Shown here: one piece after another, positions 12,355 to 27,684 of the stretch
Layout: each line of letters starts with the position of its first letter
Numbering within the stretch: the stretch's first letter is position 1
Source: a virus
Lineage: Duplodnaviria; Caudoviricetes
Virus record (IMG/VR): IMGVR_UViG_3300044606_000228
Span: 1 to 35,248 of that record
Reading direction: 5' to 3' (one strand)
DNA length: 35,248 bases
The notes under the pieces: generated by a model
Database searches by the model: none
What the model was told of the DNA's origin: nothing
Seen by the model: the letters and a program-made list of their open reading frames with translations, nothing else
Position numbers and translations under genes: made by a program

Positions 12355-12396
12355 GTCCCCCCTCGATGGAAGGGGGTGGCAAAGCCAGGGGATTCC
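12355..12396 (+). repeat. Family D double-hairpin repeat
   Basis: gtcccccctcgatggaaggggg-tggcaaagcca-ggggattcc. Confidence 0.85.
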
Positions 12397-13703: not shown

Positions 13704-13765
13704 GTCCCCCTTTAATAAAGCCTGCCTGTCCGGTAGGCAGGGGGGTGGCGAAGCCAGGGGATTCC
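13704..13765 (+). repeat. Family D repeat containing a nested 21-bp family B element (13721..13741)
   Basis: gtccccctttaataaag[cctgcctgtccggtaggcagg]ggggtggcgaagccaggggattcc. Confidence 0.9.
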
Positions 13766-14715
13766 TAAGCAAGTTTCCATCCCTTGCACTGATACAACGC
13801 AGTTGGATTCTGCAAGTGCATCACTGCATCCATATTAACGTTGTTAATAAGGAAGTTGCCTATCTGCCCTGCATACCTGCCTTTAACACCGACAGATGTA
13901 AGAACCGTTAAATCAACCCTCTCACCCCATCTGCATGCGAATATAGACGAGCTGTTATTTTCCTCCGTGAAAGGAAGAAGCGGAGTACCAGGCTCGGTAT
14001 AACCGGCGCCGCGTATTACAGTACCGCCAATCATATCAATTAAGTTGCCAAGCTCATCCTTGCTCTGCCTGTAATAACCCAGGTTCTTTGCAATAGTTAA
14101 CCATCTGACTTTGAGATACTCATTCATATAAGCATGACTTGCACCGCCCCTGATGCATGCAAAAAACTTTAACAGTGATTCAATTGCAGTCTGCTGTGCT
14201 GCTACAGCCATATCACTGTTACCGAGTGCAAGTACAACGCCATCAGCCGAATCATTTGCAAAAACAATTTTGCCAGTTGCAGCTGTCAGCTCTCTCATGC
14301 CGTTAAATTCTTTTTCATCGTCATCAACGTCTCCTTCAAAGAACTTTTCCTGGAGAGTATAGCCAACACTTTCGGCCTGAACTCTTGTCTCCTGCGCCAA
14401 TTCAGCTTCAGGATCTTCATTACGGTCTTCCAGGGCAACATCAGCTTTAGTGTCAAAGCTGACAATCTTTTTAACTACAGGATCGTAAGTCCTGGTAAAT
14501 GCCTGTGCCGTGTTATTAGTATTAAGCTCCCTGAAGATTTCCTCTTTTTCCTCAGTATCCTTAGCCCGCTTAACACTATCAGCAGGCCCGGGCCTGCTGT
14601 AGAACTGAGCATCAGAAAGAATAGGACAGCTTCTTTCGAGCCCATCAATAACAACTGCTGTAACCGGGTCACTTGGTGATATCTGTCTTAGTAACATTTT
14701 AACCTCATATTTCAA
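13765..14715 (-). CDS. Major capsid protein
   Basis: 316 aa after the protease/scaffold gene; FFEGD..D.KEFNGM motif typical of HK97-fold capsids. Confidence 0.8.
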   Translation of the reverse strand: MKYEVKMLLRQISPSDPVTAVVIDGLERSCPILSDAQFYSRPGPADSVKRAKDTEEKEEIFRELNTNNTAQAFTRTYDPVVKKIVSFDTKADVALEDRNEDPEAELAQETRVQAESVGYTLQEKFFEGDVDDDEKEFNGMRELTAATGKIVFANDSADGVVLALGNSDMAVAAQQTAIESLLKFFACIRGGASHAYMNEYLKVRWLTIAKNLGYYRQSKDELGNLIDMIGGTVIRGAGYTEPGTPLLPFTEENNSSSIFACRWGERVDLTVLTSVGVKGRYAGQIGNFLINNVNMDAVMHLQNPTALYQCKGWKLA

Positions 14716-14726
14716 TTAAAAAATTT

Positions 14727-14766
14727 GCCCCTTCTTGAAGGGGCCAGCCGTAAGGCTGGGGGATTC
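14727..14766 (+). repeat. Family D double-hairpin repeat
   Basis: gccccttcttgaaggggc-cagccgtaaggctg-ggggattc. Confidence 0.85.
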
Positions 14767-14789
14767 CCAGCCTCATAATTAATTCATAC

Positions 14790-15887
14790 CTAAGCTTTAG
14801 CAGCCTGCGGCACTCTCCCCTGAGCCTTGAATGCATCAGCAGCTGCCTTAACCTTATCAGCAGAAGTCTGTGGTTTTTCTTCACCGGTTTCTTTGTTTAC
14901 CGTAACAGTCCCGGGCTTAACAGAATTCTTAGCGCACGCATCAAGCTTTGCTTTTGTACCTGCAAAGTCAGCTTTGGCTGCTGTTATATAAATGTCCCTG
15001 TCCTTCGGAAGGATTTTGCAGTCATTTATAGCAGCATCAACCAGGCCAATAACCTCAGCGTCTTTTGTTTTATTCATAAGCTCAGTTACCTGTGTAGTTA
15101 ATGCCTTAACAGACTCAGAAAGTTCATCTTTTTTATCAGATGGAGTTGTTTCTGTTTTATCCTGCGGTTTGGTTACAGGCTGCTCTTCTTTCTTTACATA
15201 GACATCATTTTTCAACTCATACCTGCCTGCATTTATTTCTGCAATGCGTGCCAGCGCCTCAGCTTCAGTAGCTGTTTCAGGCAGACCTAATTTTGCTAAA
15301 AATTCTTTTGTCATTTTCTTATCCTTATTTTTATTTGGAATTTCATCATCAATAGTCATAGCATAAACAGCTATATAATTTTTTGCTGTAGAGGCTTTTA
15401 ATACTTCATCCGCAAATCCTTTTTTTACACATTCAGCAGCATTTAGCCATGTTTCCTCATCCATCATTTTTTCAAGCTCTGACTTACTTAGCCTGGTACG
15501 TTCTTTATATGCTTCGACTATGGCAGACTTTATCTGGTCGAGCATATCGGCTTTCTTACGCATCTCATCAGCTTCGCCGCCTTCCCACAACCACGGGTTA
15601 TGGATCATCATCATTGATGATTTATTCATATAAATCTTCCGCCCGCACATAGCAATTACCGATGCAATGGACGCAGCTATTCCTTCAACATATACTTCTA
15701 CGCTTTTTGATTTAAGAAAATTATAAATAGCAATCCCTTCGAAAACACTGCCGCCCATACTTGATATATGTAGCTCAAACTCATTATATCCCTGGTCTTC
15801 ATACTGACTAACAATCTGCCTTATATAATTAGCATTAACAGCCTCGCTGCCTATATAGTCGTATATGTATATCAAAGCCTTTTTCAT
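14790..15887 (-). CDS. ClpP-like head maturation protease fused to scaffold
   Basis: ISSMGGSVFEGIAIYN, GIAASIAS, MMIHNPW, ETWLNA.E..KGFAD; LGLPETATEAE scaffold start. Confidence 0.92.
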   Translation of the reverse strand: MKKALIYIYDYIGSEAVNANYIRQIVSQYEDQGYNEFELHISSMGGSVFEGIAIYNFLKSKSVEVYVEGIAASIASVIAMCGRKIYMNKSSMMMIHNPWLWEGGEADEMRKKADMLDQIKSAIVEAYKERTRLSKSELEKMMDEETWLNAAECVKKGFADEVLKASTAKNYIAVYAMTIDDEIPNKNKDKKMTKEFLAKLGLPETATEAEALARIAEINAGRYELKNDVYVKKEEQPVTKPQDKTETTPSDKKDELSESVKALTTQVTELMNKTKDAEVIGLVDAAINDCKILPKDRDIYITAAKADFAGTKAKLDACAKNSVKPGTVTVNKETGEEKPQTSADKVKAAADAFKAQGRVPQAAKA

Positions 15888-15910
15888 TTTGCCCTCAACG
15901 AGGGCAGGTT

Positions 15911-15930
15911 AATCAGTTTAATCAGCGGTC
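15911..15930 (+). repeat. Family G AATC 9-bp-period array (short)
   Basis: aatcagttt aatcagcggtc. Confidence 0.55.
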
Positions 15931-16002
15931 GGGTTTGCATTTATAAAATTTCCTCATTACGTTTGAACACTTTCAAATCAAAACATCAATTTTGATTTAT
16001 TT

Positions 16003-16031
16003 GCACGGGCGAAAGATTTTTTCGCCCCAAC
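16003..16031 (+). repeat. Family A palindrome
   Basis: gcacgggcgaaagattttttcgccccaac in the divergent intergenic region. Confidence 0.9.
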
Positions 16032-16138
16032 TCTGATAACAAAGATATTCCGCAAGCTTCACCTATTAAAGAACTTCCCTTCCACTAATACATATGGAAT
16101 TAATCTAATCTATTCCCTGAACCATAGATTCTATATTT

Positions 16139-16166
16139 GTACGGGCGAAAAATTTTTCGCCCCAAC
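16139..16166 (+). repeat. Family A palindrome
   Basis: gtacgggcgaaaaatttttcgccccaac. Confidence 0.9.
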
Positions 16167-16187
16167 GAATTAATTACAGGGAAAAAT

Positions 16188-16700
16188 ATGAGCAACAAAC
16201 CCGGCAGGCGTAAAAGATATGACAGTACATTAAAAGCTGAATGCAGAGTGATGTTCGTTGAGCATGAGCAGAGCTATCAGAAAATATCTGACTACTACGA
16301 CGGCTCACCTTCAGCTCAGTGCATACAGCAGTGGGCAACAAAGAAGGATGCACGTACCGGCAAAAGCTGGGCTGACGAACGCAATGAAAAAGCAGACGGT
16401 AAGTATCTGGCATTATCTCCGCAGGCCCAGGCAAGTAAAGTGCTTGAAAGAATTAATTTCCTGCTTGCTGATGACGTTGAGAACTGGGATCCAAAGCAGG
16501 CTGATGCGTTAGCCAAGACTCAGAAAGTTCTGGAGAAAATAGTTGATAAAAAATTCCAGGTACCTATGATGTACGAGCTGCTGAAGAAGCTTATAGAATT
16601 TCTTAAGCTGCATTACTCCGACCAGGTTACAGCCGAGCTGCTTAATGCTATACGTCATTTTAAAAACGAGCTTCGTAAAAAACTGGAGCTTGGTATATAA
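16188..16700 (+). CDS. Putative terminase small subunit (N-terminal HTH)
   Basis: Overlaps the TerL start (TAATG); HTH-like SYQKIS..SAQCIQQW..W.DER; start revised from 16137, which lies at a repeat. Confidence 0.7.
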   Translation: MSNKPGRRKRYDSTLKAECRVMFVEHEQSYQKISDYYDGSPSAQCIQQWATKKDARTGKSWADERNEKADGKYLALSPQAQASKVLERINFLLADDVENWDPKQADALAKTQKVLEKIVDKKFQVPMMYELLKKLIEFLKLHYSDQVTAELLNAIRHFKNELRKKLELGI

Positions 16701-18220
16701 TGAGTGAAAAATTATTTAAGCAGCTTGATGACGACTTTGAGCACTACCTCGATTCCGTCCAGTTTGAAGCTACTGAAAAAGAACTTACTCCGGAACTGAA
16801 GGCCCAGCGTCGTAAACTTGCAGATGTTGATGATTTTCAGTTTTGCAAAATTTATTTTCCCCAGATATTCAGGGACAGCTTTAACCCGCTTCATTTTTAT
16901 ATAGCTGAATGTAAGACAGGTTTTTATACTGTATCCGGTTGCAGACGATTTGGTAAATCAGCTTTTGGCTATACTACTAAATTTGTAAAATCCATGTGCA
17001 TTGGGGGGCTCGGTTTACTCGGACTTGGATTACGGACGCAAAGTCTTGCAGAGGCAAGAACAGCCAGCCTGGTCAGACTAATGAAGCGAAATAAAAAATT
17101 GATGTATGACTATGATGTGAATATACAGCAGGACAGAATCGGGGATTATATAATCAATTTTAAAAATCTTAAAGCATTTGGATACCGGGAGGGAATAAGA
17201 AATATTTTTGATGAGGAGTTTAACAGGTTTGAAATTATAATAGTAGATGATTTGTTTGACCGCAATTCCGTTAAGTCAGAGGTTGATAATAAAAAGGTAT
17301 ACGATTTTGTTACTTCTGAATGTACAGGTCAGTTAAGACCAGGTGGATTAATCATTTGGTTTTTCAATTATTGCTCCACCGATAGTCCGGGAAAGGAGTA
17401 TGCAGATGCACATCCTGAAACTCATTTTAATCTTCCTGCATTAAATGAGGAAGGAAAAACAAACTGGCCTGACAGTTTCTGGACTACTGAAGAACTTGTT
17501 AAGCTCTCTAAAGAAATTCCCTATGAAGTGTGGATGGGTGACTATATGAATGATCCTATTCAGAAGGGAGATATATTTAATACCGACTGGCTCAATACTA
17601 TAAATCTTAACCTTATAAAAATAGCTGCCAGTATTACCGGTGTGGATCCTTCTCATGGCCAGAGTCCTGCCGCATGCGATAAGGCAGCAATAACAATAGG
17701 CATTGATGCAGAGCTTGAAAAATGCTACATCACTGATATATATATACGTAAAGAAGGCTTCCCGGAATTTTTTGATTACCTGGCTATGGTTAAAATAAAT
17801 ACCATTAACCATAAAGCAATTTGCTGGGAAAATGATTTTCAGCAGTGGGACTATGCCTCCGCCTATTACGATAACTGGCGCAAAAAACATAAAATTTACC
17901 TGCCTATAATTTTATTTAATGCTAAAGACAATACAAGCGAGTTTTACGGCTCTGATAAAGAGAGCCGCATAATGAACCTGGTATTCCCCTTTCAGAAGGG
18001 GCACATACTTATAAATGCGCTTATAACAGGCAGGCATGATTACACAGTATGGAAAACTCAGTACATAAGCTTCGGCAAAAACAAAACACGCCTTGACGGG
18101 CTTGACGCGACTGCATCAGCGTTTATTATGCTTCCCAGGTATGTAAATACCGGTTCTTTTAAATCAACAGGCCAGCGCCGGTTCAAAGATGAAGAAACCG
18201 ACTGGCTCTCTAACAGGTGA
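16700..18220 (+). CDS. Terminase large subunit
   Basis: Walker A GCRRFGKS, Walker B IIIVDD, nuclease GVDPS and DGLDA. Confidence 0.92.
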   Translation: MSEKLFKQLDDDFEHYLDSVQFEATEKELTPELKAQRRKLADVDDFQFCKIYFPQIFRDSFNPLHFYIAECKTGFYTVSGCRRFGKSAFGYTTKFVKSMCIGGLGLLGLGLRTQSLAEARTASLVRLMKRNKKLMYDYDVNIQQDRIGDYIINFKNLKAFGYREGIRNIFDEEFNRFEIIIVDDLFDRNSVKSEVDNKKVYDFVTSECTGQLRPGGLIIWFFNYCSTDSPGKEYADAHPETHFNLPALNEEGKTNWPDSFWTTEELVKLSKEIPYEVWMGDYMNDPIQKGDIFNTDWLNTINLNLIKIAASITGVDPSHGQSPAACDKAAITIGIDAELEKCYITDIYIRKEGFPEFFDYLAMVKINTINHKAICWENDFQQWDYASAYYDNWRKKHKIYLPIILFNAKDNTSEFYGSDKESRIMNLVFPFQKGHILINALITGRHDYTVWKTQYISFGKNKTRLDGLDATASAFIMLPRYVNTGSFKSTGQRRFKDEETDWLSNR

Positions 18221-18224
18221 GGTT

Positions 18225-19373
18225 ATGGCAACACAAGTTTTAGTTATAAATAAAAACATCGGCAGCATCAACGTTGCATTTACACCCGAATATTATAAGC
18301 GGGCCTATTCAAGCTGGCTTAACGGGGACTACAGGTACCTGCTTGCCCTGATTGACAGGGCCGAGACTGATTCTTTTATATCCGGCTGCCTGGCTGCAAG
18401 GCACTTAGGCTATAAACGTAAATTCCAGATGCAGCCTGCAACCGACAGTGCATATGATAAAGAAATTGCTGAATTCGTCCAGGAAGTGTTCAACAACTTA
18501 TTCATGCGTGAATTCTTTGAAGATATGATAGATGCACGTATGAAATATTATTCTGTCATCTCGCTTGAATGGGACATAGCAAACGGGAAGCAAATACCGG
18601 TTTACGCCGAAAAGCTTGCACAAAAATATTTCAGGTATGATCCCAAAGACAATATACTTAAAGTTGACTGGGGCAAAACACTGAAAGAAATTCCTGCCGA
18701 CTCTGCATTTGTACTTGAGTCCTCACGCAAGCCTATAATGCTTAACGTGCTTAAGAATTATATTATGAAAGAATTCGGCGAGCAAAACTGGTCATCCTTC
18801 TTGGAGCGGTTCGGCGAGCCTTTTATCTTTGCCTTTGTTCCTCCCAACGCAGATAAAGAAACTCTTGATAACGTTGATTCAAGCCTTAAAAAAATGGCAA
18901 GCTCAACAACTGGACGTTTTCCAAAAGGCACTGAATTAAAAATCGAGGAAGCACAGCGTTCAACAGGCGACCAGCAAAAGTATTTGCAAACCTGCATGGA
19001 AGGCATCTCACTTGCCCTTCTCGGACATAAAGATGCGGCTGGCTCTGACAGCAAAATGCAGATAGGCGATAACACATCAGGCATCGAAGTAAAAAAAGGA
19101 ATTGCCATAGATGATATATTCTGGATAGAAGAAAAAATAACTACGTTCATAAAAATGATTGTCAACCGTAATTATAATACTTCTGTTTATCCAAAACTTA
19201 TAATTGATAAGTCAGACGCCATTGATGCAAAAACAAAATTGCAGGCCGCCGAGCAGGCCATCGAGGGCGGCGCGCAAATTGCCCCCGAATTTTATAAAGA
19301 TATGGGCATCCCGATTGTTTCAGAAGATCCCATACAAAAGCGCACCATCGCCCAGGAATTCAATTTGGATTAG
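18225..19373 (+). CDS. Portal protein (DUF935 / Mu gp29-like)
   Basis: Follows TerL; WSSFLERFGEP and ISLALLG motifs; GAGGT SD before ATG 18225. Confidence 0.88.
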   Translation: MATQVLVINKNIGSINVAFTPEYYKRAYSSWLNGDYRYLLALIDRAETDSFISGCLAARHLGYKRKFQMQPATDSAYDKEIAEFVQEVFNNLFMREFFEDMIDARMKYYSVISLEWDIANGKQIPVYAEKLAQKYFRYDPKDNILKVDWGKTLKEIPADSAFVLESSRKPIMLNVLKNYIMKEFGEQNWSSFLERFGEPFIFAFVPPNADKETLDNVDSSLKKMASSTTGRFPKGTELKIEEAQRSTGDQQKYLQTCMEGISLALLGHKDAAGSDSKMQIGDNTSGIEVKKGIAIDDIFWIEEKITTFIKMIVNRNYNTSVYPKLIIDKSDAIDAKTKLQAAEQAIEGGAQIAPEFYKDMGIPIVSEDPIQKRTIAQEFNLD

Positions 19374-19391
19374 TCTCCCCTTGAGGGGAGT
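19372..19391 (+). repeat. Family E, first hairpin only
   Basis: agtctccccttgaggggagt overlapping the portal stop. Confidence 0.7.
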
Positions 19392-19499
19392 CCATTGCAA
19401 TGTGCTAAATTCAGAAATTGTGTTTTAACGCATACAGCATTAAAAATGCCTTGACAATACAAATGCCCGGATTCCGGGGCAGGCTCTCGTATAGAGCCC

Positions 19500-19521
19500 A
19501 CTGAACGGTTACTGAACGGTT
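19500..19521. repeat. 11-bp tandem repeat
   Basis: actgaacggtt actgaacggtt. Confidence 0.8.
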
Positions 19522-19565
19522 TTATTTCAAATTTATTTTTAACTGAGATTATCTTAGAATTTCAA

Positions 19566-19626
19566 AATCAGCTTAATCAAAAAAATCATGTTTTTTAATC
19601 AGCGTAAATCCGGGTAATCAGTGGTC
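19566..19626 (+). repeat. Family G AATC array
   Basis: AATC at 19566, 19575, 19584, 19597, 19607, 19616; ends aatcagtggtc. Confidence 0.7.
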
Positions 19627-20079
19627 GAAGAAATAGTACAACAAATACTCTCGCTATTCCGCAACCAGGAAATGATGCAGAAGCTTGCCCTTGCCGCTGA
19701 GTTCAAAATTAAGAAGCGGACTCAGCAGGGTATCGCCGTAGAAGGTACAAGCTTCGGGCAATACAGTCCCGGGTATGCAAAGAAAAGGACAAAGGCAGGG
19801 CTGCCGATACATCCAATCACCCTAACCTTTGACGACATCACCGGTATGCTTCAGCAGATAACAGACGAAGTAAGCAGCGACTATAAATCAGTTGAGATAT
19901 TTATACAGAAGCCGGAGAAAGAATTAATTATGCAGTACCTGTCAATCATGGGAGCAGGCCGTAACAGGAAGATATTTCACTTCTGGGATATCAGCGAGCA
20001 GGAAGAAAAAGAACTTGCAGAAATTGTTGATGAAGAACTACTAAAAAATTTCAGTTTAATAAAGGGGAGTGTATTGTAG
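19621..20079 (+). CDS. Virion morphogenesis / tail completion protein (Mu gpG-like)
   Basis: IKKRTQQG..G..F..YSPGYAKKR..L..TG.M..I pattern; start uncertain. Confidence 0.65.
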   Translation: MVEEIVQQILSLFRNQEMMQKLALAAEFKIKKRTQQGIAVEGTSFGQYSPGYAKKRTKAGLPIHPITLTFDDITGMLQQITDEVSSDYKSVEIFIQKPEKELIMQYLSIMGAGRNRKIFHFWDISEQEEKELAEIVDEELLKNFSLIKGSVL

Positions 20080-20107
20080 ATAGGGGTTTACGCAAAGCCC
20101 GTCTACA
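20075..20107. repeat. GTAG-type hairpin (family F)
   Basis: tgtagataggggtttacgcaaagcccgtctaca; contains the TAG stop of the upstream gene. Confidence 0.55.
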
Positions 20108-20155
20108 TCCCCCTGCCCCCTTCAAAGCCTGCCTGTCCGGCAGGCAGGGGGGACT
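20107..20155 (-). repeat. Family D repeat with nested family B element (20128..20148)
   Basis: atccccctgcccccttcaaag[cctgcctgtccggcaggcagg]ggggact. Confidence 0.88.
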
Positions 20156-20170
20156 TTTAAAGGAGTTAAT

Positions 20171-20584
20171 ATGTCTACAGTAACTAAAGACTATATCAAA
20201 CAATATTTCCCTCTCTGGGATAAATTTTTCCTTGATGCTGAAGGCGATGCATCAGAAACAATCCTGCAAGCCGAGCTTGACCAGGCAGAAATACACCTGC
20301 AGGAGTATATTATATTCCCTGAACCAATAACTGACCAGGTAAAGCGCATGGTACTTATTATTACCAGGTACTTCGGCTTCATGCGTACACAGGGAGATGT
20401 TGAATTTAAAGTAAAGCCTTTCATTGTTAAAGAATATGAAGCACTTATAGAACGACTTGAGCAGTTTAAAGCAGGAGAAATATCTCTGCTCCCCTCCACC
20501 TTACTAAGGGGAGGGGCCGGGGGTGAGGTTAATGCAAAGCCCAGGATATTTGACGAATGGTTTAACGATCCTTATTCAGATTAG
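20171..20584 (+). CDS. Head-tail adaptor (DUF1320 / Mu gp36-like)
   Basis: A..HLQEY..P....VKR...I.RY..YE.LI.RLE.FKAGEISL pattern; AGGAG SD. Confidence 0.7.
   Translation: MSTVTKDYIKQYFPLWDKFFLDAEGDASETILQAELDQAEIHLQEYIIFPEPITDQVKRMVLIITRYFGFMRTQGDVEFKVKPFIVKEYEALIERLEQFKAGEISLLPSTLLRGGAGGEVNAKPRIFDEWFNDPYSD
20490..20529 (+). repeat. Family C repeat, in-frame
   Basis: tcccctccaccttactaaggggaggggccgggggtgaggt; encodes PSTLLRGGAGGEV. Confidence 0.85.
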
Positions 20585-20592
20585 AGGTTACA

Positions 20593-21042
20593 ATGTACAA
20601 CGACATATACCAGGCACAGCGTGCCTTAGTAAGCCATCTCAAAACAGGCAATGTAGGGGCTTACAATTGTAAGCACATTAAAGAATACGCAGGAGAGCTG
20701 GGCGATGTTAACAAGCTGCGCGACATCATGCCATCAGCCGCATTGGTGCGGTTGATGGAAGGCCCGGCAGCAGGTGAGACTCCCCGGGATCACAGGTTTT
20801 ATATTATTATCTTAACCAGGTCAGACAGCTACGATAAAAAAAGCAACCGTAACAATAACCTTCAGCTTGCATCTGATATTGGTAAGTACCTTGATGATAA
20901 CCCCGCCTGGCAATTTACTGATGATGATGAAGAAACAGTTGAGTATATACTTGACCGTGAGCGCCTCATCAGCAGGATCTTATTCCAGGACAATTCGTAC
21001 ACCTGCATCTACCTTGAAGCGATGATAAAGATTTTAATTTAG
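20593..21042 (+). CDS. Neck / tail terminator protein (Mu gp37-like)
   Basis: IKEYAGEL...PSAALV pattern; follows the gp36-like gene. Confidence 0.6.
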   Translation: MYNDIYQAQRALVSHLKTGNVGAYNCKHIKEYAGELGDVNKLRDIMPSAALVRLMEGPAAGETPRDHRFYIIILTRSDSYDKKSNRNNNLQLASDIGKYLDDNPAWQFTDDDEETVEYILDRERLISRILFQDNSYTCIYLEAMIKILI

Positions 21043-21066
21043 GGGCGAAACATCTTTCGCCCTTAC
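21040..21066 (-). repeat. Family A palindrome at the convergence point
   Basis: taggggcgaaacatctttcgcccttac; contains the TAG stop of 20593..21042. Confidence 0.88.
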
Positions 21067-21133
21067 AAGCACATCTCACTTCTCTCCGGGCCGTCCTACC
21101 GGGTGCCAGCTTTTATAAACCGCAAGTCAGCAG

Positions 21134-21697
21134 TCAGTGAGTATGCTTCCTATCCATATACTCCTTGTACGCCCGCGGATCATTCTGCAATAGCTCAGCT
21201 TCAAACTTAGCCTCTTTTATCCTGCGTTCTTCAGAAGTCTCCTCTTGAGGGGAGTGCCCGCAGGGCGAGGGGTGTTGGGGGGGTGTAGACGCCTTATCAT
21301 TTCCGTGCCCTTTTTTAGTAAACTCCGAAAAGTCAAAACCCCCTATCTTCACATTAGCCTGTGTTTCCCTTGCCTTAGCCTGTGCCTCAGCCTTCTCTTT
21401 TTTAATATGCTCTTTCTGGTATTCTCCCTTTAGTATACCTCTGACATAAGAGAGCTTCATCCTTTCTGTCTCAGCGCATGCCTCTACAAATGCATCAAAC
21501 ACTTTTTGATATCCATATTCCTTAACAAGCCTCTCTGCAAACATTCTTTGACCCATGTTAAGAAGAATCATATCAGTCTTAACACTTTTCCATAAATCAA
21601 ACAAAGCAGCTATCCTGTCACTGCCGGGATTTTGAAGATCCGCCCCGCATACGGGGCAGGTAGGTTTAGGAGGGGCGGGTATCTTTTTTAAGTTCAT
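21134..21697 (-). CDS. DnaD/DnaB-C-like replication protein
   Basis: LVKEYGY..V..A..EA...KLSYVRGILK matches the YxxxIL motif; N-terminal CPVCG. Confidence 0.5.
   Translation of the reverse strand: MNLKKIPAPPKPTCPVCGADLQNPGSDRIAALFDLWKSVKTDMILLNMGQRMFAERLVKEYGYQKVFDAFVEACAETERMKLSYVRGILKGEYQKEHIKKEKAEAQAKARETQANVKIGGFDFSEFTKKGHGNDKASTPPQHPSPCGHSPQEETSEERRIKEAKFEAELLQNDPRAYKEYMDRKHTH
21236..21275 (+). repeat. Family E double-hairpin repeat, in-frame
   Basis: agtctcctcttgaggggagt-gcccgcagggc-gaggggtgt; encodes HPSPCGHSPQEET. Confidence 0.9.
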
Positions 21698-21719
21698 ATA
21701 TTCTCTTTAGTACCTGGCA

Positions 21720-22247
21720 TTAAAAATACCTCATATCTGGTTCAACCCATTCAGTTTGTGTCTTAAAGAAAAAATCTCTTTCACTATAAGTGGGAACGAC
21801 TTTATTTCCCTTCCAAAGGAAGCCATCCTTCACAAAATACCCGCGCTGCTTAATCTCTGTAACCATGCGCTGACTGAAAGCAGCAGAGCCGATACGAATC
21901 ATTTTTATTACGCCCCACTGCTCAGGAGTAGTAATAAATAAATCAAGGTTAATACCTTCCTCCAGTATAAGCTGCGCATACTTGCCCTCTCCGTTGCCTT
22001 TAACCCTTGTAAAAGAATTAACAAGCTTTACAAACTCAGGCTCTCTTATTGTTTCAGTAGGATTAAACATATCTCCTGTTTCTACCGTGGTACCTTTGGG
22101 AATAACAAGTAACTCAATGTCATGCACATCATTTTTTTTCCTGCGTACAGATCCCACCACATCAATCTTTGTGCAGTGCGGCTCGAATATCCTAAAATAT
22201 TTTCCGGCTATTGCCTCAGCCTGTGCAAGGAGCATAATTACTCCCAT
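21720..22247 (-). CDS. Minimal X-family DNA polymerase (palm and thumb only)
   Basis: GSVRRKK..VHDIELLV, LDLF, W...RIGS..FS, SERDFF motifs of Pol beta/PolX. Confidence 0.82.
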   Translation of the reverse strand: MGVIMLLAQAEAIAGKYFRIFEPHCTKIDVVGSVRRKKNDVHDIELLVIPKGTTVETGDMFNPTETIREPEFVKLVNSFTRVKGNGEGKYAQLILEEGINLDLFITTPEQWGVIKMIRIGSAAFSQRMVTEIKQRGYFVKDGFLWKGNKVVPTYSERDFFFKTQTEWVEPDMRYF

Positions 22248-22507
22248 ATATCATTTTTTGCTTGCTCATTAATTGAATCAGTTATTTCTTTGTCAGTTGG
22301 ATGGCAATTTTCATTCGGGCACCAGAAGAAGATACCATCACCTTTACAATGAGAGCACTTTTCAAATTCATTTTCATCATACCACAAAGGATCCTCTTCA
22401 TAAAGGTCATCATTATACCCTTCCCCTCCGCAATCTTCACAATCGCGGGTTGCAAGTTGTCCGCCACACCTGGGACAGGTGTAGTGTGAATATTCCCAAT
22501 CTTCCAT
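22238..22507 (-). CDS. Small Cys-rich zinc-finger protein (CxxCxGxG repeats)
   Basis: CPRCGG, CEDCGGEG, CSHCKGDG; GGAGG SD. Confidence 0.7.
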   Translation of the reverse strand: MEDWEYSHYTCPRCGGQLATRDCEDCGGEGYNDDLYEEDPLWYDENEFEKCSHCKGDGIFFWCPNENCHPTDKEITDSINEQAKNDIWE

Positions 22508-22508
22508 A

Positions 22509-22601
22509 TTACCTCCTCATGATAAATGCATAAGATAAAATGATTACATAAATAACCAGTGCAAACGCCAGCCAGCAGTATTTCACTTTTCTATTTTTCA
22601 T
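22509..22601 (-). CDS. 30-aa membrane peptide (not in ORF track)
   Basis: MKNRKVKYCWLAFALVIYVIILSYAFIMRR; TAATG coupling to the upstream gene. Confidence 0.5.
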   Translation of the reverse strand: MKNRKVKYCWLAFALVIYVIILSYAFIMRR

Positions 22602-23017
22602 TATTGCCTCATGGGAAATTTTTTCGATGCTTTAATTAATTTGTCAATAAATTTCTGACTACTGCCAGCCTCTATTTCATCTTGTATGAGATTGTTCCAG
22701 TTCGAATATTTCCAGTATCTTACTCTTTTATTTTCTCTTTCTTCTCTTATTTCATAATCATGCATCAACCTGGAGGCTATATCTATGCTGTTATTCCCTA
22801 TATAACCTTTCGCTATAAGAGATCTTGTTGGCCATGCGTGAACGTTTACGATACAGATAATCTGAGATTTATTATAAAAGACAACATTTATTTTCATCCT
22901 ATAAATCTTATTCAAGATGTTTAGCCATGTTGGCCTTTTCCCCAAAAACAAATCCAATTGACTGACTGCCTGCCTGTCCGGCAGGCAGGCTGCCGACTGC
23001 GTACTGCATACTGGCAT
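22601..23017 (-). CDS. Hypothetical protein with repeat-derived N-terminus
   Basis: Fills the operon; the first ~19 codons come from heptamer and family B repeats. Confidence 0.55.
   Translation of the reverse strand: MPVCSTQSAACLPDRQAVSQLDLFLGKRPTWLNILNKIYRMKINVVFYNKSQIICIVNVHAWPTRSLIAKGYIGNNSIDIASRLMHDYEIREERENKRVRYWKYSNWNNLIQDEIEAGSSQKFIDKLIKASKKFPMRQ
22961..23016. repeat. Heptamer array with nested family B element (22969..22989)
   Basis: actgact g[cctgcctgtccggcaggcagg]ctgccg actgcgt actgcat actggca. Confidence 0.85.
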
Positions 23018-23715
23018 TATAGAGCCTCTTTATATTTAATCAGTGATTCAGGTACATCAAACAACCTTAACTGCCCTTTAACAGGAAAAGGAACTACCGG
23101 CCTTATGTTGCGGAGGAACCATGAATATGCACCATCATAAATAAAGCAGCATACATTAGCTTCATCCGCTCCTCTTGTCATAAGCTTTATATCGTATAGC
23201 TCAGCAACGCATATTGCCATACCATATGGGCCTTGTAAAATATTCTGCTCATAAAATTCAGCCACACCCTGGATGCCGTCAAATGAATCACGCAGGTTTT
23301 CAATCATCTGTTTATCAGGCTTCAGGGAGGATACAATAAGCAGGTCGCCCCTGTATTCAGTTTTCCAGGTTCTTGTTTCAATGAGTTTAAATTTATAACT
23401 AATCATATTAGCCCAGGGCTGCTTGCATGATATAGCCTTAATTGTTTTTACACACACGCTGCACAGATCCTCTTCAACCCAGTAGCAAGGCTGGCCGGTT
23501 TTTTCAACACACTGTGAGCAGTCATAATCTGTACACCCGCACACTCTGCATGTACGTATCATTTTATTTCTCGGGTTCAAAGTGTCTTTAAGGGACTGGA
23601 TAAATACCTCAAGCTCTTCCAGGTTCTCTATTGCTTTTGCCTGGCTGACAGACCTGTCAGAGTATAACTCATCAATAGCTTCTTTAGCAGCTTCAAATAA
23701 TTTTTGATTATCCAT
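23017..23715 (-). CDS. ASCH-domain protein with N-terminal helical and Cys-rich domains
   Basis: KAISCKQPWA..I...K.IETRTWKT.YRG.LLI and P.KGQLRLF. Confidence 0.82.
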   Translation of the reverse strand: MDNQKLFEAAKEAIDELYSDRSVSQAKAIENLEELEVFIQSLKDTLNPRNKMIRTCRVCGCTDYDCSQCVEKTGQPCYWVEEDLCSVCVKTIKAISCKQPWANMISYKFKLIETRTWKTEYRGDLLIVSSLKPDKQMIENLRDSFDGIQGVAEFYEQNILQGPYGMAICVAELYDIKLMTRGADEANVCCFIYDGAYSWFLRNIRPVVPFPVKGQLRLFDVPESLIKYKEAL

Positions 23716-23744
23716 TTTTTTCTCCTTTTGTTTTTTATTGTTCT

Positions 23745-23783
23745 AATCAGTGTAATCACATTAATCAGCTGAATCAGCGGTTC
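23745..23783 (+). repeat. Family G AATC array
   Basis: AATC at 23745, 23754, 23763, 23772 (exact 9-bp period); ends aatcagcggttc. Confidence 0.75.
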
Positions 23784-23955
23784 TGACTTCTTCTCTTGGC
23801 TCATACAGAATATCATTATCCTGCTCCGGATGTTTTTCTGTATGGTCAAACTCTCCGTCTAATATTTCCTGGGGGATGGTTTTTCCATCTTCCCAGAAAG
23901 CAGCGCATTTGTTTACACCCAGAAAGTGCTTACAGTTAATACATTGGTTAGTCAT
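23761..23955 (-). CDS. Small Cys/His protein, candidate immunity partner of the MuF fusion
   Basis: CINCKH..C.AF..IP.EI..G..DH...D.DILYE; overlaps the MuF stop. Confidence 0.6.
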   Translation of the reverse strand: MTNQCINCKHFLGVNKCAAFWEDGKTIPQEILDGEFDHTEKHPEQDNDILYEPREEVRTADSAD

Positions 23956-25456
23956 TTTTTAATCCTTTTATATAATTCTCAAAAAATTTAATTACACGCC
24001 CAGGAAGCTTTTCCTTAAAATTATACATAGTAAAACACTCAGCAAAAAACTCGTTTGCTTTTGTATAAGCATAGCCGCTGACGGTATAGATATCACCGTT
24101 TTTAACTGACGCTTTATATATATCCGTCCACTCCCGGTTAAGCTTCTGTTTCTCCTCCTCACTGAAACGGCCTGATGCAAGCATCCTGTTAATCATTCCT
24201 GTAGTCTGATCCTGCCATACATGCCCCAGCTCGTGAGTTACGCATGCCTCAGCCTCTTTTCCTTTATAAAGTACATTATACCTTTTGAATCTCAGGGAGA
24301 ACTCAAGCTCTTTTATTGCTGTTTCATAAAACCTGCTTTCCGGATGCAGTTCCAGAAGCTTCTTATATTTTTCAAGCTCCTTTGAATAAGTCTTTACATG
24401 ATTTTCAACGCTAAGGTTATACATCTTTTCAATCTGCTTTGCATTAAAGAAGCTTTTAACATTAAGATTTAAAGTATTGCCGTTTGCACTTGCCCAGGCA
24501 TTCCCGTGTGAAGTTGTTACAATATTTGTTAAAGCTCTTAAATTATATTGCTGCTTAATGCTGAAAAGAGTCTCATTTATCCTGTTTGCTATATCCAGAT
24601 CCAGACCGGAATAAGTTACAACACTTGCAATCCTGCTTTCACGTGCAAAGCTCTCTGCGTCTGCCAGCGATGCAGCCCTTTTGAAACCGCTTCTTTCGCT
24701 CACACTTATGCCGGATGAAGTGCCCGGCTTATACGTCGGATCCGGCTCCCAGTCATGCCTGCAATTCCAGCCCCCGCAATAAATAATACATGGAGCTATA
24801 TAAGCGGGGCCAACTTCAGCCTCAGTTATTTTGTTAATGTCATCAATATGAAGAACAGCGCCTAACATTGTTTTACAAAACTTCCGGCTTGTTTCCCTTA
24901 ACAACCCCATATACTCATAGTAAAATATCCCTGCTATATTTGCCTTCTCATGCTTGGCTGTGCGGTTATATGCCTTAAGCTGAGTCGCTGCAATAACACT
25001 TCCATAAGCTGAAGCTTTATCAGATATCTTGGATATATTTGCAGTTAATTCCTTATGCGATAGCTTTTCCCGGATACCTGTTTTAACAGCCTTTTGAATT
25101 TCCTTCTTAGTTGATTCCCTGTAATTGCCCAGCCTTAAAGTATTTATTTTTTCCAGCCTTTTTATTACAGGCATATCGCGCTGTATATCAAATCCCAGGT
25201 CTGAGTAAAGATCATTGATGAGGTCAAGAGAATCATTGTAAGAGCGGTTTATTTGCGTAAGCCATTTTACAAATTCAGGATCAAAGGCTTGTGTAAGCGC
25301 CCTGTTTAATTCGCTTATATCAGCAGTAGGATGCTTAAATATATAATCAAGAATCTTATCCTGTATAACTTCATAATAAGCTTCAGGACTCAGCTTCCTT
25401 GCAAGCTCTGCAATTTCTTTCTGAAATTCTCTTAACCTGTTTATATCAACAGCCAT
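23948..25456 (-). CDS. MuF-type head morphogenesis protein with C-terminal zincin metallopeptidase domain
   Basis: SRKFC...GGWNCRHDW MuF-like motif; THELGH...SGYA.T..NEFFAECF. Confidence 0.78.
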   Translation of the reverse strand: MAVDINRLREFQKEIAELARKLSPEAYYEVIQDKILDYIFKHPTADISELNRALTQAFDPEFVKWLTQINRSYNDSLDLINDLYSDLGFDIQRDMPVIKRLEKINTLRLGNYRESTKKEIQKAVKTGIREKLSHKELTANISKISDKASAYGSVIAATQLKAYNRTAKHEKANIAGIFYYEYMGLLRETSRKFCKTMLGAVLHIDDINKITEAEVGPAYIAPCIIYCGGWNCRHDWEPDPTYKPGTSSGISVSERSGFKRAASLADAESFARESRIASVVTYSGLDLDIANRINETLFSIKQQYNLRALTNIVTTSHGNAWASANGNTLNLNVKSFFNAKQIEKMYNLSVENHVKTYSKELEKYKKLLELHPESRFYETAIKELEFSLRFKRYNVLYKGKEAEACVTHELGHVWQDQTTGMINRMLASGRFSEEEKQKLNREWTDIYKASVKNGDIYTVSGYAYTKANEFFAECFTMYNFKEKLPGRVIKFFENYIKGLKND

Positions 25457-26135
25457 TACTGATTAGCCTCAAAAAATGCTTTTGCAAAATAGGGGGGGTA
25501 ATATATCTTAGCATCTGCCTGTTTTTGGTATCCCTGAAAGTAATATCTGCTATTGATTTCAGCGCTGTAGTCTTTACCCCGAATTTTATATTATCAACCG
25601 GCTTTATATTATTTGTCTTTACCGGTACGTCAAAATTTCCCCAGAGATAAGTTTGCTTTGTATACATATCTCCGAATTCATAAGGATGAAAAACAAATAC
25701 AGGCTTGCCGATGAAATACTTAAGGAAGCCGTTCGGATTCTCAAGTGACCAGAACCTCAGAGAAGTTTTATAACCGTGCTTTTGCTGACAATAACTAAAC
25801 TGGCAGGCCCATATAATTCTAAGGCATGCTTCAACTGTAATCATCCCTTCTTTGAGATTTCTTTTCCTTATCGCATTGGCTCTGGCAAAGCTAAACATTG
25901 TGCACGGCGGGGCTGCTAATATTCCGTATACACTTTCATATGAAATGACTAAATCATGTGTTAGTAACGTTTGATGTTTGAATATCATATAGTCGGGATA
26001 AAAAACAACATTTGTAACAGAATAGTCCGGCAGTGTTATTACAATTACCTGATACCCGGCCTTTTTATAGGGCTTGCTCCATGAGCCTGTCCCGCCGCAT
26101 AAATCGAGAATAATTTTTTTTGAGTTATCAGGCAT
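25446..26135 (-). CDS. DNA (cytosine-5) methyltransferase; C-terminus apparently frameshifted at a G7 tract
   Basis: ILDLCGGTGSWS, AAPPCT.FS, LENP, YTK.T.LWG.F; start revised to MPDNSK. Confidence 0.85.
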   Translation of the reverse strand: MPDNSKKIILDLCGGTGSWSKPYKKAGYQVIVITLPDYSVTNVVFYPDYMIFKHQTLLTHDLVISYESVYGILAAPPCTMFSFARANAIRKRNLKEGMITVEACLRIIWACQFSYCQQKHGYKTSLRFWSLENPNGFLKYFIGKPVFVFHPYEFGDMYTKQTYLWGNFDVPVKTNNIKPVDNIKFGVKTTALKSIADITFRDTKNRQMLRYITPPILQKHFLRLISNGC

Positions 26136-26331
26136 TTTGAAACAACCCCGGTTGTACATTAACATCTCTCTCGTAATCCTCTTTTGTGATCCATTTATGC
26201 CCGCACTGCAAGCATACCTTATAACGATAGACAATATTAGTCCTTGATACCCTGTCAGTCTTATAAGTCTTGACAGGCCAGGGCACCTCATCAGTACGTT
26301 TGAATTTTTTATTTTTACATTTGGGGCACAT
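26128..26331 (-). CDS. Zinc-ribbon protein (NrdR-N/Ogr-like), possible transcription regulator
   Basis: MCPKC...RYKVCLQCGHKWIT.E. Confidence 0.65.
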   Translation of the reverse strand: MCPKCKNKKFKRTDEVPWPVKTYKTDRVSRTNIVYRYKVCLQCGHKWITKEDYERDVNVQPGLFQNA

Positions 26332-26645
26332 TATTTATTTAATTCCCTGCGTCTCTTAAATCTTTTAGCCAGAGAAGGAAATAAGCCTCCGACAATTGCT
26401 AACTGATGTCCGTAATCTATCAATGCGATTTCCAAACAATCTCTTTCTGTATAACCTATTTTCTGAAGGTCAAAGATGCTTCTTAAATGATAATCAGTTG
26501 ATATCATTAGCTTTATTAAATCAGCTCTTTCCTTTCTTGACATAGTATGAGGATATTTTCCATAAATTATCTCAGCAAACTTGGGATCATCTTTTGCATA
26601 CTCTCTAAATTTTAATACAGGATCTATGTCTTTCTTTTTTGCCAT
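26331..26645 (-). CDS. Hypothetical protein (start revised to MAKKKDIDP)
   Basis: The upstream extension in the track overlaps the ATPase gene and two repeats. Confidence 0.6.
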   Translation of the reverse strand: MAKKKDIDPVLKFREYAKDDPKFAEIIYGKYPHTMSRKERADLIKLMISTDYHLRSIFDLQKIGYTERDCLEIALIDYGHQLAIVGGLFPSLAKRFKRRRELNK

Positions 26646-26673
26646 TATTTTATTTGCCTTTTGCTTTGACTGC

Positions 26674-26700
26674 GTACGGGCGAAAGATTTTTCGCCCCTA
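26674..26700 (+). repeat. Family A palindrome
   Basis: gtacgggcgaaagatttttcgccccta; contains the TAG stop of the ATPase gene. Confidence 0.9.
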
Positions 26701-27684
26701 TGATACTTTCTTAAATAAATTTTGCTGTTCCTGCCTGCCTGTCCGGCAGGCAGGTTTCCCATTCACAGCACTTAACAAAAGCTCTCTTATCTGCTTTATC
26801 TTCTGCTCATCTTTTATCCCGCTGTTAATAGCAGTGTAAACAGTTGAATTAGGTATACCGGTTTTCTTTTCAATATCTCTGGTACTCATTCCGCTGGCAT
26901 CATATAGCTCCTTAAGGGTAGGATTAACAACATCAGTATCAATCTGTTTATAACCGACTTTCTTTGCATCTTTCATTTTATCTCTTACGTACTGGATCAT
27001 CTGAAGAGGCTGCTTATTAACAAGAGCAATAGTCCGGCGTGCCGGGGCTGAAATAGCTTCACCAAATACAAGTCTGAGGAAAGCAACTCGTTCCTCAAAG
27101 GTCATCCATCCGCTTTCTTCATCAAGAGATACTTTACAGGTTCTCCAGCTGACTTCCTTACGCTTGCTTACCTTCTCCATCATCTCCCACTGTCCGATTA
27201 AAACAACGGAGAACAAAGGCCATACACCAGCAAAACGGGCTTCTCTTAAAGTCTTAAGCGCTTTGAATGTATGCTTATTAAGCAGGTGAGCATCTTCGAT
27301 AACTATACATATGTTTGTTCCTTTTTCAACATGCTCTTTACCAACAATACGGACAAACTGGCGGCTCCTGGCTTCCAGGTCACGCTTTGGCCCTTCCGCT
27401 GACAGCTCATATATACAGGCATTTATAATACTGCTTATAGTACACTTCTCAACATCAAGGTTAACAACCCGGACAAACTTGTTTCCATTTTTCAGATACT
27501 GTTCTGCAGCTTCAAACAAAAATGTTTTTCCGCTGCCAAATTCACCCGGTATAAGAAGCATCTGGTTATTAACTATGGCATCAACAATATCATCCCTGAA
27601 GTCGATAAAAGTTTTATTGTGGTACAGGCCCAAAGAACTCAGGCCGAAATAATTAAGAAGCGATTTGTGAATAAGATTTATCAT
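26698..27684 (-). CDS. Transposition AAA+ ATPase (MuB/ExeA-like) with C-terminal HTH
   Basis: Walker A GEFGSGKT, Walker B IVIEDAH, VLIGQ; MSTRDIEKKTGIPNSTVY HTH. Confidence 0.88.
   Translation of the reverse strand: MINLIHKSLLNYFGLSSLGLYHNKTFIDFRDDIVDAIVNNQMLLIPGEFGSGKTFLFEAAEQYLKNGNKFVRVVNLDVEKCTISSIINACIYELSAEGPKRDLEARSRQFVRIVGKEHVEKGTNICIVIEDAHLLNKHTFKALKTLREARFAGVWPLFSVVLIGQWEMMEKVSKRKEVSWRTCKVSLDEESGWMTFEERVAFLRLVFGEAISAPARRTIALVNKQPLQMIQYVRDKMKDAKKVGYKQIDTDVVNPTLKELYDASGMSTRDIEKKTGIPNSTVYTAINSGIKDEQKIKQIRELLLSAVNGKPACRTGRQEQQNLFKKVS
26734..26754. repeat. Family B 21-bp palindrome, in-frame
   Basis: cctgcctgtccggcaggcagg; adds PACRTGR to the ATPase tail. Confidence 0.9.

What the first reader, a model, noticed from the sequence alone, without database searches (positions are those of the whole stretch)
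13721..26754. A 21-bp palindromic micro-element that inserts precisely and targets other repeats
Seen: cctgcctg-tccgg-caggcagg occurs at 13721 (one mismatch), 20128, 22969 and 26734. Deleting exactly 21 bp restores tccccctttaataaaggggg and gcccccttcaaagggggac, with the same insertion point (after AAAG) in two different family D copies. It also restores the array actgact-gctgccg-actgcgt-actgcat and the reading GKQEQ in the ATPase. No consistent target duplication is seen, all four follow a G, and all have the same + orientation. Inference: a minimal frame-neutral (7-codon) mobile unit that parasitises other repeats, far smaller than a MITE, with an unknown insertion mechanism.
Basis: partly seen in the sequence, partly recalled or inferred. 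Interest (0 to 1): 0.85.

Follow-up and report, generated by a model that had tools for sequence, protein, structure and literature searches.

The report
21-base miniature of a nuclease element
A 21-base hairpin found four times in this phage is a precisely inserted DNA snippet shared by many bacterial phyla; its two ends match those of a rare 280-base element that encodes a small DNA-cutting enzyme, which likely moves it, an arrangement not found in the papers searched.

Summary
The four copies are real and lie in a Mu-like phage contig. The same 21-mer occurs in an estimated 5,800 GTDB stretches from many phyla, up to 86 copies per genome. It is an exact 21-base insertion without target duplication: 9 of 9 aligned relatives of a Psychroserpens gene lack these 21 bases, and the closest MuB homologue lacks the 7 residues. 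It favours other repeats, yet 60 of 127 independent sites lie in long reading frames, 45 reading xLP(A/T)GQAG. Its ends match those of 279-297-bp cassettes read through as a GIY-YIG nuclease inside host genes (15 of 117 metagenome loci). These share its frame and flanking-base rule, and gene-less forms of 18-39 bases link the two. Best reading: a non-autonomous miniature, likely moved in trans by a small GIY-YIG nuclease. Against: none of 50 genomes carrying the 21-mer holds the long cassette, and no activity was tested. This scan reported the cassette and sister palindromes before, on other DNA; I found neither in print. Closest published: cyanobacterial SDRs, Rickettsia RPEs, Ssn nucleases.

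The parts
13721..13741 (+). 21-nt element, copy 1 (T variant), inside the 3' arm of a CCCCC...GGGGG hairpin repeat just downstream of the major capsid gene
13706..13763 (+). host hairpin repeat interrupted by copy 1 after AAAG
12357..12394 (+). empty sister of the site-1 host repeat (same tail, no insert)
20128..20148 (+). 21-nt element, copy 2, after AAAG in a second hairpin repeat (20116-20152), intergenic
22969..22989 (+). 21-nt element, copy 3, inside a heptamer array
22601..23017 (-). 138-codon frame that reads copy 3 as CLPDRQ; start overlaps the stop of the upstream frame; no homologues found
26734..26754 (+). 21-nt element, copy 4, in frame near the 3' end of the MuB-like ATPase gene (adds PACRTGR)
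26698..27684 (-). MuB-like AAA ATPase gene, host of copy 4; nine aligned homologues lack the seven residues

Best explanation
The 21-mer is a precisely inserted, gene-less miniature that shares its ends with a family of 279-297-bp cassettes encoding a small GIY-YIG nuclease, and it is likely copied to new sites in trans by such a nuclease. SHOWN: (1) The unit is exactly 21 bases and enters without duplicating or deleting target bases. (2) Read as CCTGCCTRC-CGGA-CAGGCAGG, it has the first 9 and last 8 bases of the long cassettes, including their A/G polymorphism at base 8. (3) Both avoid T before and A after the site, and inside genes both mostly use one strand and frame (xLP(A/T)...QAG). (4) Gene-less forms of 18, 27, 30, 33, 36 and 39 bases form a graded series; four lie within about 9 kb of a long cassette in one genome. 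INFERRED: (5) The miniature arose by loss of the cassette's interior and now spreads as a unit of its own. (6) The paired ends form an 8-bp stem in single-stranded or extruded DNA; the nuclease would cut at the base of the stem and nick a loosely specified target, and host ligation or repair would complete the join. (7) The enzyme comes from the host, not this phage: either a rare, transient long cassette or the related tRNA-linked GIY-YIG genes. Enrichment in other repeats is likely a mix of exposed hairpin DNA and survival in neutral places.
For: Precision: DNA-level empties in 9 of 9 aligned relatives at an A|T site; period-7 register restored at a 21-base deletion (53 of 77 matches, against 16-22 for 18-20 and 22-24); the empty 16-base junction occurs elsewhere for 29 of 286 sites at 21 bases, against at most 8 at other lengths; filled and empty copies side by side in L432 and L644. 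Cassette: 15 of 117 metagenome loci selected only for the two 9-base arms 250-280 bases apart hold an end-to-end GIY-YIG frame. All 19 cassettes seen as DNA are multiples of three, with flanks A|C 8, A|T 5, C|C 3, G|C 1, A|A 1, G|G 1. 668 longer proteins match at E <= 1e-20; of 127 domains in the 120 listed, 112 begin LPAPR and 112 end GR(A/T)RQAG. Y12, G24, R32, H36 and E69 are invariant in 15 of 15 (their catalytic role is from my own knowledge). The model has the GIY-YIG fold, nearest UPF0213 and Slx1; the 15 form one clade, support 98/91. Link: 45 of 60 in-frame 21-mers use the cassette's strand and frame; G545 holds two cassettes and a 27-mer equal to the 21-mer plus 6 bases; G625 holds a cassette with four miniatures nearby. 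Family hairpins lie upstream of 9 of 22 tRNA-linked GIY-YIG genes against 5 of 149 other genes, and of 0 of 24 Y1 transposase matches.
Against: No long cassette was found in any of the 50 genomes that carry the 21-mer (best 76.8 bits and partial, against 132-162 for true cassettes), nor in the window. None of the 3 cassette-bearing genomes holds the exact 21-mer. G558 has 32 family hairpins on one 2.5-Mb contig and no cassette. The cassette is rare: 3 of 201, 0 of 201, 0 of 301 and 0 of 151 genomes in four phylum samples and absent from four viral scans. Co-occurrence with three or more hairpins is weak (2 of 3 against 5 of 59, p = 0.03). The 5-base loop cannot come from a cassette by one simple deletion. 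GIY-YIG enzymes are known as hydrolytic nucleases, not strand-transfer enzymes (own knowledge), so the joining step has no precedent. There is no replication-strand bias (20 against 16 confident calls, p = 0.62), so nothing points to lagging-strand single-stranded DNA. The frame bias may be selection for a tolerated peptide: between genes the strand bias is only 19:11 (p = 0.20). The excess beside tRNA-linked genes could be survival, since an insert in the duplicated tRNA piece would hinder deletion of the gene. No activity was measured.
Confidence: 0.55

Rival explanations
1. The small hairpins are the primary element, moved by some other host enzyme (HUH/RAYT, an IS110-type recombinase or repair capture), and the GIY-YIG frame is a passenger once captured in the loop.
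For: Small forms far outnumber cassettes and thrive without them. The loop accepts other repeats as cargo (L426-L428). Y1 transposases are present in 5 of 5 high-copy genomes tested.
Against: The cassette nucleases are one clade with invariant active-site residues and fixed ends at 50-73% identity to the first member. No family hairpin lies within 300 bases of 24 Y1 matches. No GTAG/CGTC tag (sequence), no lagging-strand bias. IS110-type enzymes were not tested.
Confidence: 0.28
2. Each 21-mer is only a footprint: a full cassette inserted at that place and later lost its interior, and the 21-mer itself never moves.
For: Four miniatures near the G625 cassette keep its longer ends, each with a different loop and a length divisible by three. 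In genes the 21-mer mostly uses the cassette's frame.
Against: The loop is identical across phyla and thousands of stretches, needs two deletions from a cassette end, and the unit sits inside copies of itself and of its sisters at different positions (L005, L006, L014, L670). It also occurs in other frames, as at window sites 3 and 4.
Confidence: 0.09
3. No dedicated enzyme: copies spread by replication template switching between look-alike sequences.
For: Targets weakly resemble the element's end-to-end junction even without the two flanking bases (3.42 of 12 matches against 2.91 +/- 0.11 at 58 control offsets).
Against: Ends are exact at A|T sites with no shared base, and the sequence is identical in distant phyla. 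The resemblance fits relaxed enzyme specificity equally well.
Confidence: 0.07
4. A product of the phage's own Mu transposase, or an assembly artefact.
For: The contig encodes MuA and MuB homologues.
Against: No 5-base duplication and no TG...CA ends (Mu features from my own knowledge; one search finds a 5-base duplication at 0 of 147 sites). The 21-mer occurs in cultured isolates and keeps frames open in conserved genes.
Confidence: 0.01

Closest known systems
Small dispersed repeats (SDRs) of Nostocaceae (Elhai et al. 2008, PMC2527708; paper not held; seen only through passages of PMC5861425, PMC4390886, PMC2884548)
   Same: About 20 bases, dispersed, precisely inserted inside other short repeats (SDR5 between bases 3 and 4 of HIP1). 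Nesting in heptamer arrays and in each other, the 21-27-base range and the unknown enzyme are recalled, not read.
   Different: SDR-like repeats were not found outside Nostocaceae among HIP1-rich genomes; this family spans many phyla and phages, has loose target choice, enters genes in frame and has a candidate enzyme. Sequences could not be compared.
Ssn nucleases with NTS/SRM hairpins (Chenal et al. 2025, PMC11893778; read: abstract, first quarter of Results, section 10, Discussion)
   Same: Single-domain GIY-YIG proteins of about 90 residues tied to a hairpin repeat; they cut single-stranded DNA next to the hairpin; the authors liken NTS-ssnA-NTS to an insertion sequence.
   Different: Ssn genes are free-standing and flanked by whole GTCATTCCCG-type repeats; here the gene lies between the two arms of one hairpin and is read through inside host proteins. 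In my tree the repeat-flanked GIY-YIGs fall outside the cassette clade. Movement is not shown for Ssn either.
Rickettsia palindromic elements (RPE; passages of PMC10969869 and PMC3733652)
   Same: Palindromic repeats inserted in frame into unrelated, conserved genes.
   Different: About 150 bp, confined to Rickettsia in the passages read, with no enzyme named there; this unit is 21 bases and crosses phyla.
Prokaryotic MITEs (PMC10969869; read: Introduction and passages)
   Same: Gene-less derivative with terminal inverted repeats, moved in trans by a full element.
   Different: MITEs are 50-500 bp and use a transposase that makes staggered cuts; this has 21 bases, no duplication, and a GIY-YIG nuclease in place of a transposase.
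REP/REPIN with RAYT, and IS200/IS605 (PMC3733652 passages; rest from my own knowledge)
   Same: Short hairpins, no target duplication, occasional in-frame inserts.
   Different: No GTAG or CGTC tag, no association with Y1 genes (0 of 24), no replication-strand bias.

Membership tests
MITE | Terminal inverted repeats | tested here: met
   8-bp perfect arms
MITE | Length 50-500 bp | tested here: not met
   21 bases; range from PMC10969869
MITE | Target-site duplication | tested here: not met
   Duplications of 3, 4, 5 bases at 2, 1, 0 of 147 sites; exact 21-base gap
MITE | Full element with a transposase between the same ends | tested here: not met
   The gene found between the ends is a GIY-YIG nuclease; only spacings of 251-311 bases were searched
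REP/RAYT | GTAG or CGTC tag next to the palindrome | tested here: not met
   No conserved flank beyond weak base preferences
REP/RAYT | Copies flank a Y1 transposase gene | tested here: not met
   0 of 24 Y1 matches in five high-copy genomes (24 of 33 listed matches examined)
IS200/IS605 derivatives | Fixed tetra/pentanucleotide target and lagging-strand bias | tested here: not met
   Only loose flanking preferences; 20 against 16, p = 0.62
SDR (Nostocaceae) | About 20-27 bases, precise insertion, inside other repeats | tested here: met
   definition and recall
SDR (Nostocaceae) | Sequence kinship with SDR1-8 | not testable with these tools
   Paper not held
Ssn/SRM | SRM-type repeat flanking a free-standing cd10448 gene | tested here: not met
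   Different repeat and layout; cassette clade apart from repeat-flanked GIY-YIGs; cd10448 itself was not scanned
Ssn/SRM | Site-specific cutting of single-stranded DNA beside the hairpin | not testable with these tools
   Needs an assay
RPE | In-frame insertion in unrelated conserved genes | tested here: met
   30 of 38 frames with Pfam families
RPE | About 150 bp, Rickettsia families | tested here: not met
   21 bases, many phyla
In-frame GIY-YIG cassette family (this scan's earlier notes; not in print) | Same terminal 9 and 8 bases, same frame, no duplication, graded gene-less forms | tested here: met
In-frame GIY-YIG cassette family (this scan's earlier notes; not in print) | Full cassette present in genomes that carry the miniature | tested here: not met
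   0 of 50 genomes, mostly incomplete; exact 21-mer in 0 of 3 cassette genomes

The most novel reading that the evidence does not exclude
A new class of mobile DNA in which a 90-residue GIY-YIG domain is itself the transposase: it recognises an 8-bp terminal stem, excises and inserts without target duplication, lives as a translated domain inside host proteins, and drives a cosmopolitan swarm of 18-39-base miniatures that add short loops to essential enzymes across bacterial phyla, with phages such as this one as carriers.
Probability: 0.4. Interest if true: 0.92.

Novelty: new variant of a known kind. Interest (0 to 1): 0.76.

Why it matters
How repeats of about 20 bases move, and how palindromes land in frame inside essential genes, has been open since the SDR and RPE reports. 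This family supplies a named, small candidate enzyme, defined ends, a target rule and natural intermediates, so the question can be tested with one protein and one oligonucleotide. If right, a lone GIY-YIG domain performs scar-free insertion, a mechanism new to mobile DNA and of possible use for scarless DNA writing. Either way the family is a widespread source of seven-residue loops (LPAGQAG, LPTGQAG) and of false GIY-YIG domain fusions in annotated proteins.

Tried and rejected
Related phage DNA: the search for related loci with MuB and with P0002 found nothing in viral contigs; no sequencing run was listed, which is no evidence. Arm-pair searches with 8-base arms found no cassette in 40 genomes (21 loci fetched, the rest judged from the first 80 bases), 121 viral loci or 301 genomes of the phylum of G019 (30 loci scored, 54 rows not shown). 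One hit there (G291) was a tRNA-linked GIY-YIG whose own codons give the arm. Only the 9-base-arm metagenome scan found cassettes; 79 of its 117 loci were chance pairs, 23 held small elements. Pooled flank statistics that included G002 and G023 were dropped as pseudo-replicated and redone on 137 independent sites (34 sites next to family members and 53 look-alike flanks removed from 224). Folding energy of the joined flanks hardly separates deletion lengths. The insertion point shows no stem or loop preference (34 hairpin sites). A replichore bias suggested by runs of one orientation was not confirmed. One Y1 locus with arm-like octamers on both sides looks like chance (L932). A test of sister-hairpin lengths in genes kept only 9 sites because of my filter and says nothing. 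A 3-base CTG duplication at site 3 and a 1-base G duplication were considered and rejected: duplications are not general and frames stay open with 21 bases. Rfam gave no match in the window. HsdM empties were absent from the fetched proteins (0 against 36 filled); HsdS gave 3 and 2 empties against 19 and 17 filled. Literature searches found no description of this element or cassette; the library lacks most subscription papers, and no supplements were searched (those of PMC3733652 and PMC11893778 could list such repeats).
Full report
Setting. The window is a linear virus record, about 62% complete, 40% G+C, with Mu-type transposase, MuB-like ATPase, GemA, portal, terminase and capsid genes. It encodes no GIY-YIG nuclease, and none of 43 frames of 80 residues or more hit a Y1 transposase family.

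The arms are 8-bp perfect inverted repeats around a 5-base loop and fold at about -8.8 kcal/mol. Sites 1 and 2 interrupt CCCC...GGGG hairpins after AAAG; an empty sister of site 1 stands at 12357. Site 3 interrupts a heptamer array that is also the start of a 138-codon frame without homologues. Site 4 adds PACRTGR to the MuB-like protein; all 9 aligned homologues lack it, 4 with a gap of exactly 7 columns. Exact empty alleles of the four sites were not obtained.

Spread. The exact 21-mer (C or T at base 14) was found in 23 viral loci and in 122 loci from 2 of 64 parts of GTDB, an estimated 5,800 stretches. Hosts are mostly Bacteroidota, also Patescibacteria, Nitrospirota, Omnitrophota, Chloroflexota, Planctomycetota and one Woesearchaeota record. 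Copy numbers in 50 carrier genomes run from 1 to 86, on both strands, with 0 for the reversed control. Part of the high counts is hitch-hiking in amplified host repeats. Sisters of 18-39 bases with the same arms and other loops are common.

Precision. In a Psychroserpens 3-hydroxyacyl-CoA dehydrogenase gene, 9 of 9 aligned relatives lack exactly these 21 bases at an AAAA|TCTG site, where no shift is possible. At 11 sites in heptamer arrays the register is restored at 21 bases (53 of 77 matches, against 16-22 otherwise). The empty junction occurs elsewhere in the fetched DNA for 29 of 286 sites at 21 bases and for at most 8 at other lengths. Duplications of 3-5 bases are at background.

Targets. 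At 137 independent sites T is avoided before and A after the insert; purine|pyrimidine, C|C and G|G steps dominate. There are weak preferences at -3, +3, +4 and +5 that resemble the element's own end-to-end junction. Heptamer arrays (11 of 147 against 45 of 3,866) and intergenic hairpins (9 of 32 against 14 of 141) are enriched. But 60 of 127 independent sites lie in long frames, and 30 of 38 frames tested are known families, several essential. Of the 60, 45 read xLP(A/T)GQAG; 51 have the CCGGA-loop strand as coding strand. Between genes the bias is 19:11 (not significant), and there is none with replication direction.

The long form. Earlier notes of this scan said that sister palindromes are the joined ends of a GIY-YIG element; this changed my reading and I tested it. 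Searches in carrier genomes and viral contigs failed. A metagenome scan for the 9-base arms 250-280 bases apart gave 15 of 117 loci in which one GIY-YIG frame runs from arm to arm inside a host gene; 4 more came from 3 of 201 genomes of the phylum of G015. All 19 are 279-297 bases, multiples of three, with the same flank rule. Protein searches show hundreds of such fusions with fixed LPAP and RQAG ends. HsdS proteins provide mutual empties. The domain has invariant Tyr, Arg, His and Glu, a confident GIY-YIG model nearest UPF0213 and Slx1, and forms one clade. That clade is weakly placed (81/69, 84 columns) beside tRNA-linked GIY-YIG genes.

The link. In the sense of the cassette, the 21-mer has its first 9 and last 8 bases, the same LPA/LPT polymorphism and the same frame. 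Intermediates exist: 30 and 33 bases in viral contigs; 33, 36, 36 and 39 bases within about 9 kb around the G625 cassette; and a 27-mer in G545 that equals the 21-mer plus six bases. Family hairpins also crowd upstream of tRNA-linked GIY-YIG genes (9 of 22 against 5 of 149). These genomes were chosen as carriers, and three loci came from arm searches. In G558 the hairpin lies 14 bases before such a gene. No hairpin lies near 24 Y1 matches.

What speaks against. The cassette is absent from all 50 carrier genomes, the exact 21-mer is absent from the 3 cassette genomes, G558 has 32 hairpins without a cassette, and four phylum samples hold it in 3 of 854 genomes. So kinship of the ends is well supported, but which protein moves the 21-mer today is inferred, and the joining chemistry has no precedent.

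Mechanism I commit to (0.55). The 21-mer is a trimmed descendant of the cassette that spreads by itself as a unit. A small host GIY-YIG would recognise the terminal stem, cut at its base and nick a loosely chosen target; host ligation or repair would seal it. Inserts survive in neutral repeats and, in genes, mostly in the frame that gives a Gly/Ala-rich loop after Asp, Asn, Ser or Gly. Rivals: another enzyme with the nuclease as passenger (0.28), footprints only (0.09), template switching (0.07), Mu or artefact (0.01).

Comparison and novelty. It works like a MITE but fails on size, duplication and enzyme. It fails the REP/RAYT and IS200/IS605 tests. It resembles SDRs in size and habit, and RPEs in entering genes in frame. 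Ssn proteins show that a lone GIY-YIG can cut single-stranded DNA at a hairpin (PMC11893778), but their layout and clade differ. Nine literature searches found no account of this element; the SDR paper could not be read. The scan has met the cassette before on other DNA. New here are the 21-base member's reach, its target and frame statistics, the graded intermediates and the negative co-occurrence result. I file it as a new variant of a known kind, with a 0.4 chance of a new transposase class. Interest 0.76.

Noticed in passing
P0002 (MuB homologue on a 35,098-bp contig): Lacks the 21-mer but carries its own in-frame insert of about 15 residues (ETSPQPSPYKGEGAN) elsewhere in the protein, which looks like a translated hairpin repeat.
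   Followed up: no
window 5739, 13050, 13546, 16000, 16136, 21036, 26671, 30793: Eight copies of a second hairpin family (GGGCGAAA...TTTCGCCC), some inside reading frames, plus about ten CCCC...GGGG hairpins: an unusual load of host-type repeats for a 35-kb phage.
   Followed up: no
L149, L152, L160, L163, L522, L558, L560, L561, L563, L567, L570, L573, L578, L670, L955: Small GIY-YIG genes sit between a dead 5' fragment of a tRNA and the intact tRNA; the dead copy very often holds a family hairpin in its D-arm, giving filled and empty pairs in one locus.
   Followed up: partly
L146, L151 (G004:C322), L566 (G012:C135): A different GIY-YIG clade occurs inside frames of 529-906 codons beside another repeat family, possibly a parallel in-frame cassette system.
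   Followed up: no
L426-L428 (G035): A second micro-element of about 20 bases is inserted, singly or in tandem, in the loop of the 21-mer.
   Followed up: no
G002 and G023 loci L358-L417: Most copies there ride inside a few amplified host repeats; one G002 repeat took the 21-mer at two positions four bases apart, in opposite orientations.
   Followed up: partly
and host genes: Long cassettes are concentrated in restriction-modification genes, with recurring sites in HsdS and HsdM, but also occur in LeuRS, ArgRS, AlaRS, trigger factor and MsrB; some proteins carry two.
   Followed up: partly
window 23948-25456 (-): MuF-like protein with a C-terminal region that has a weak Pfam hit, below cut-off, to ATLF; it may be a MuF protein with an added C-terminal domain.
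   Followed up: no
L002, L005, L006, L014 (one 28.8-kb viral contig): Six copies of the 21-mer, three of them nested in other copies at different positions.
   Followed up: partly
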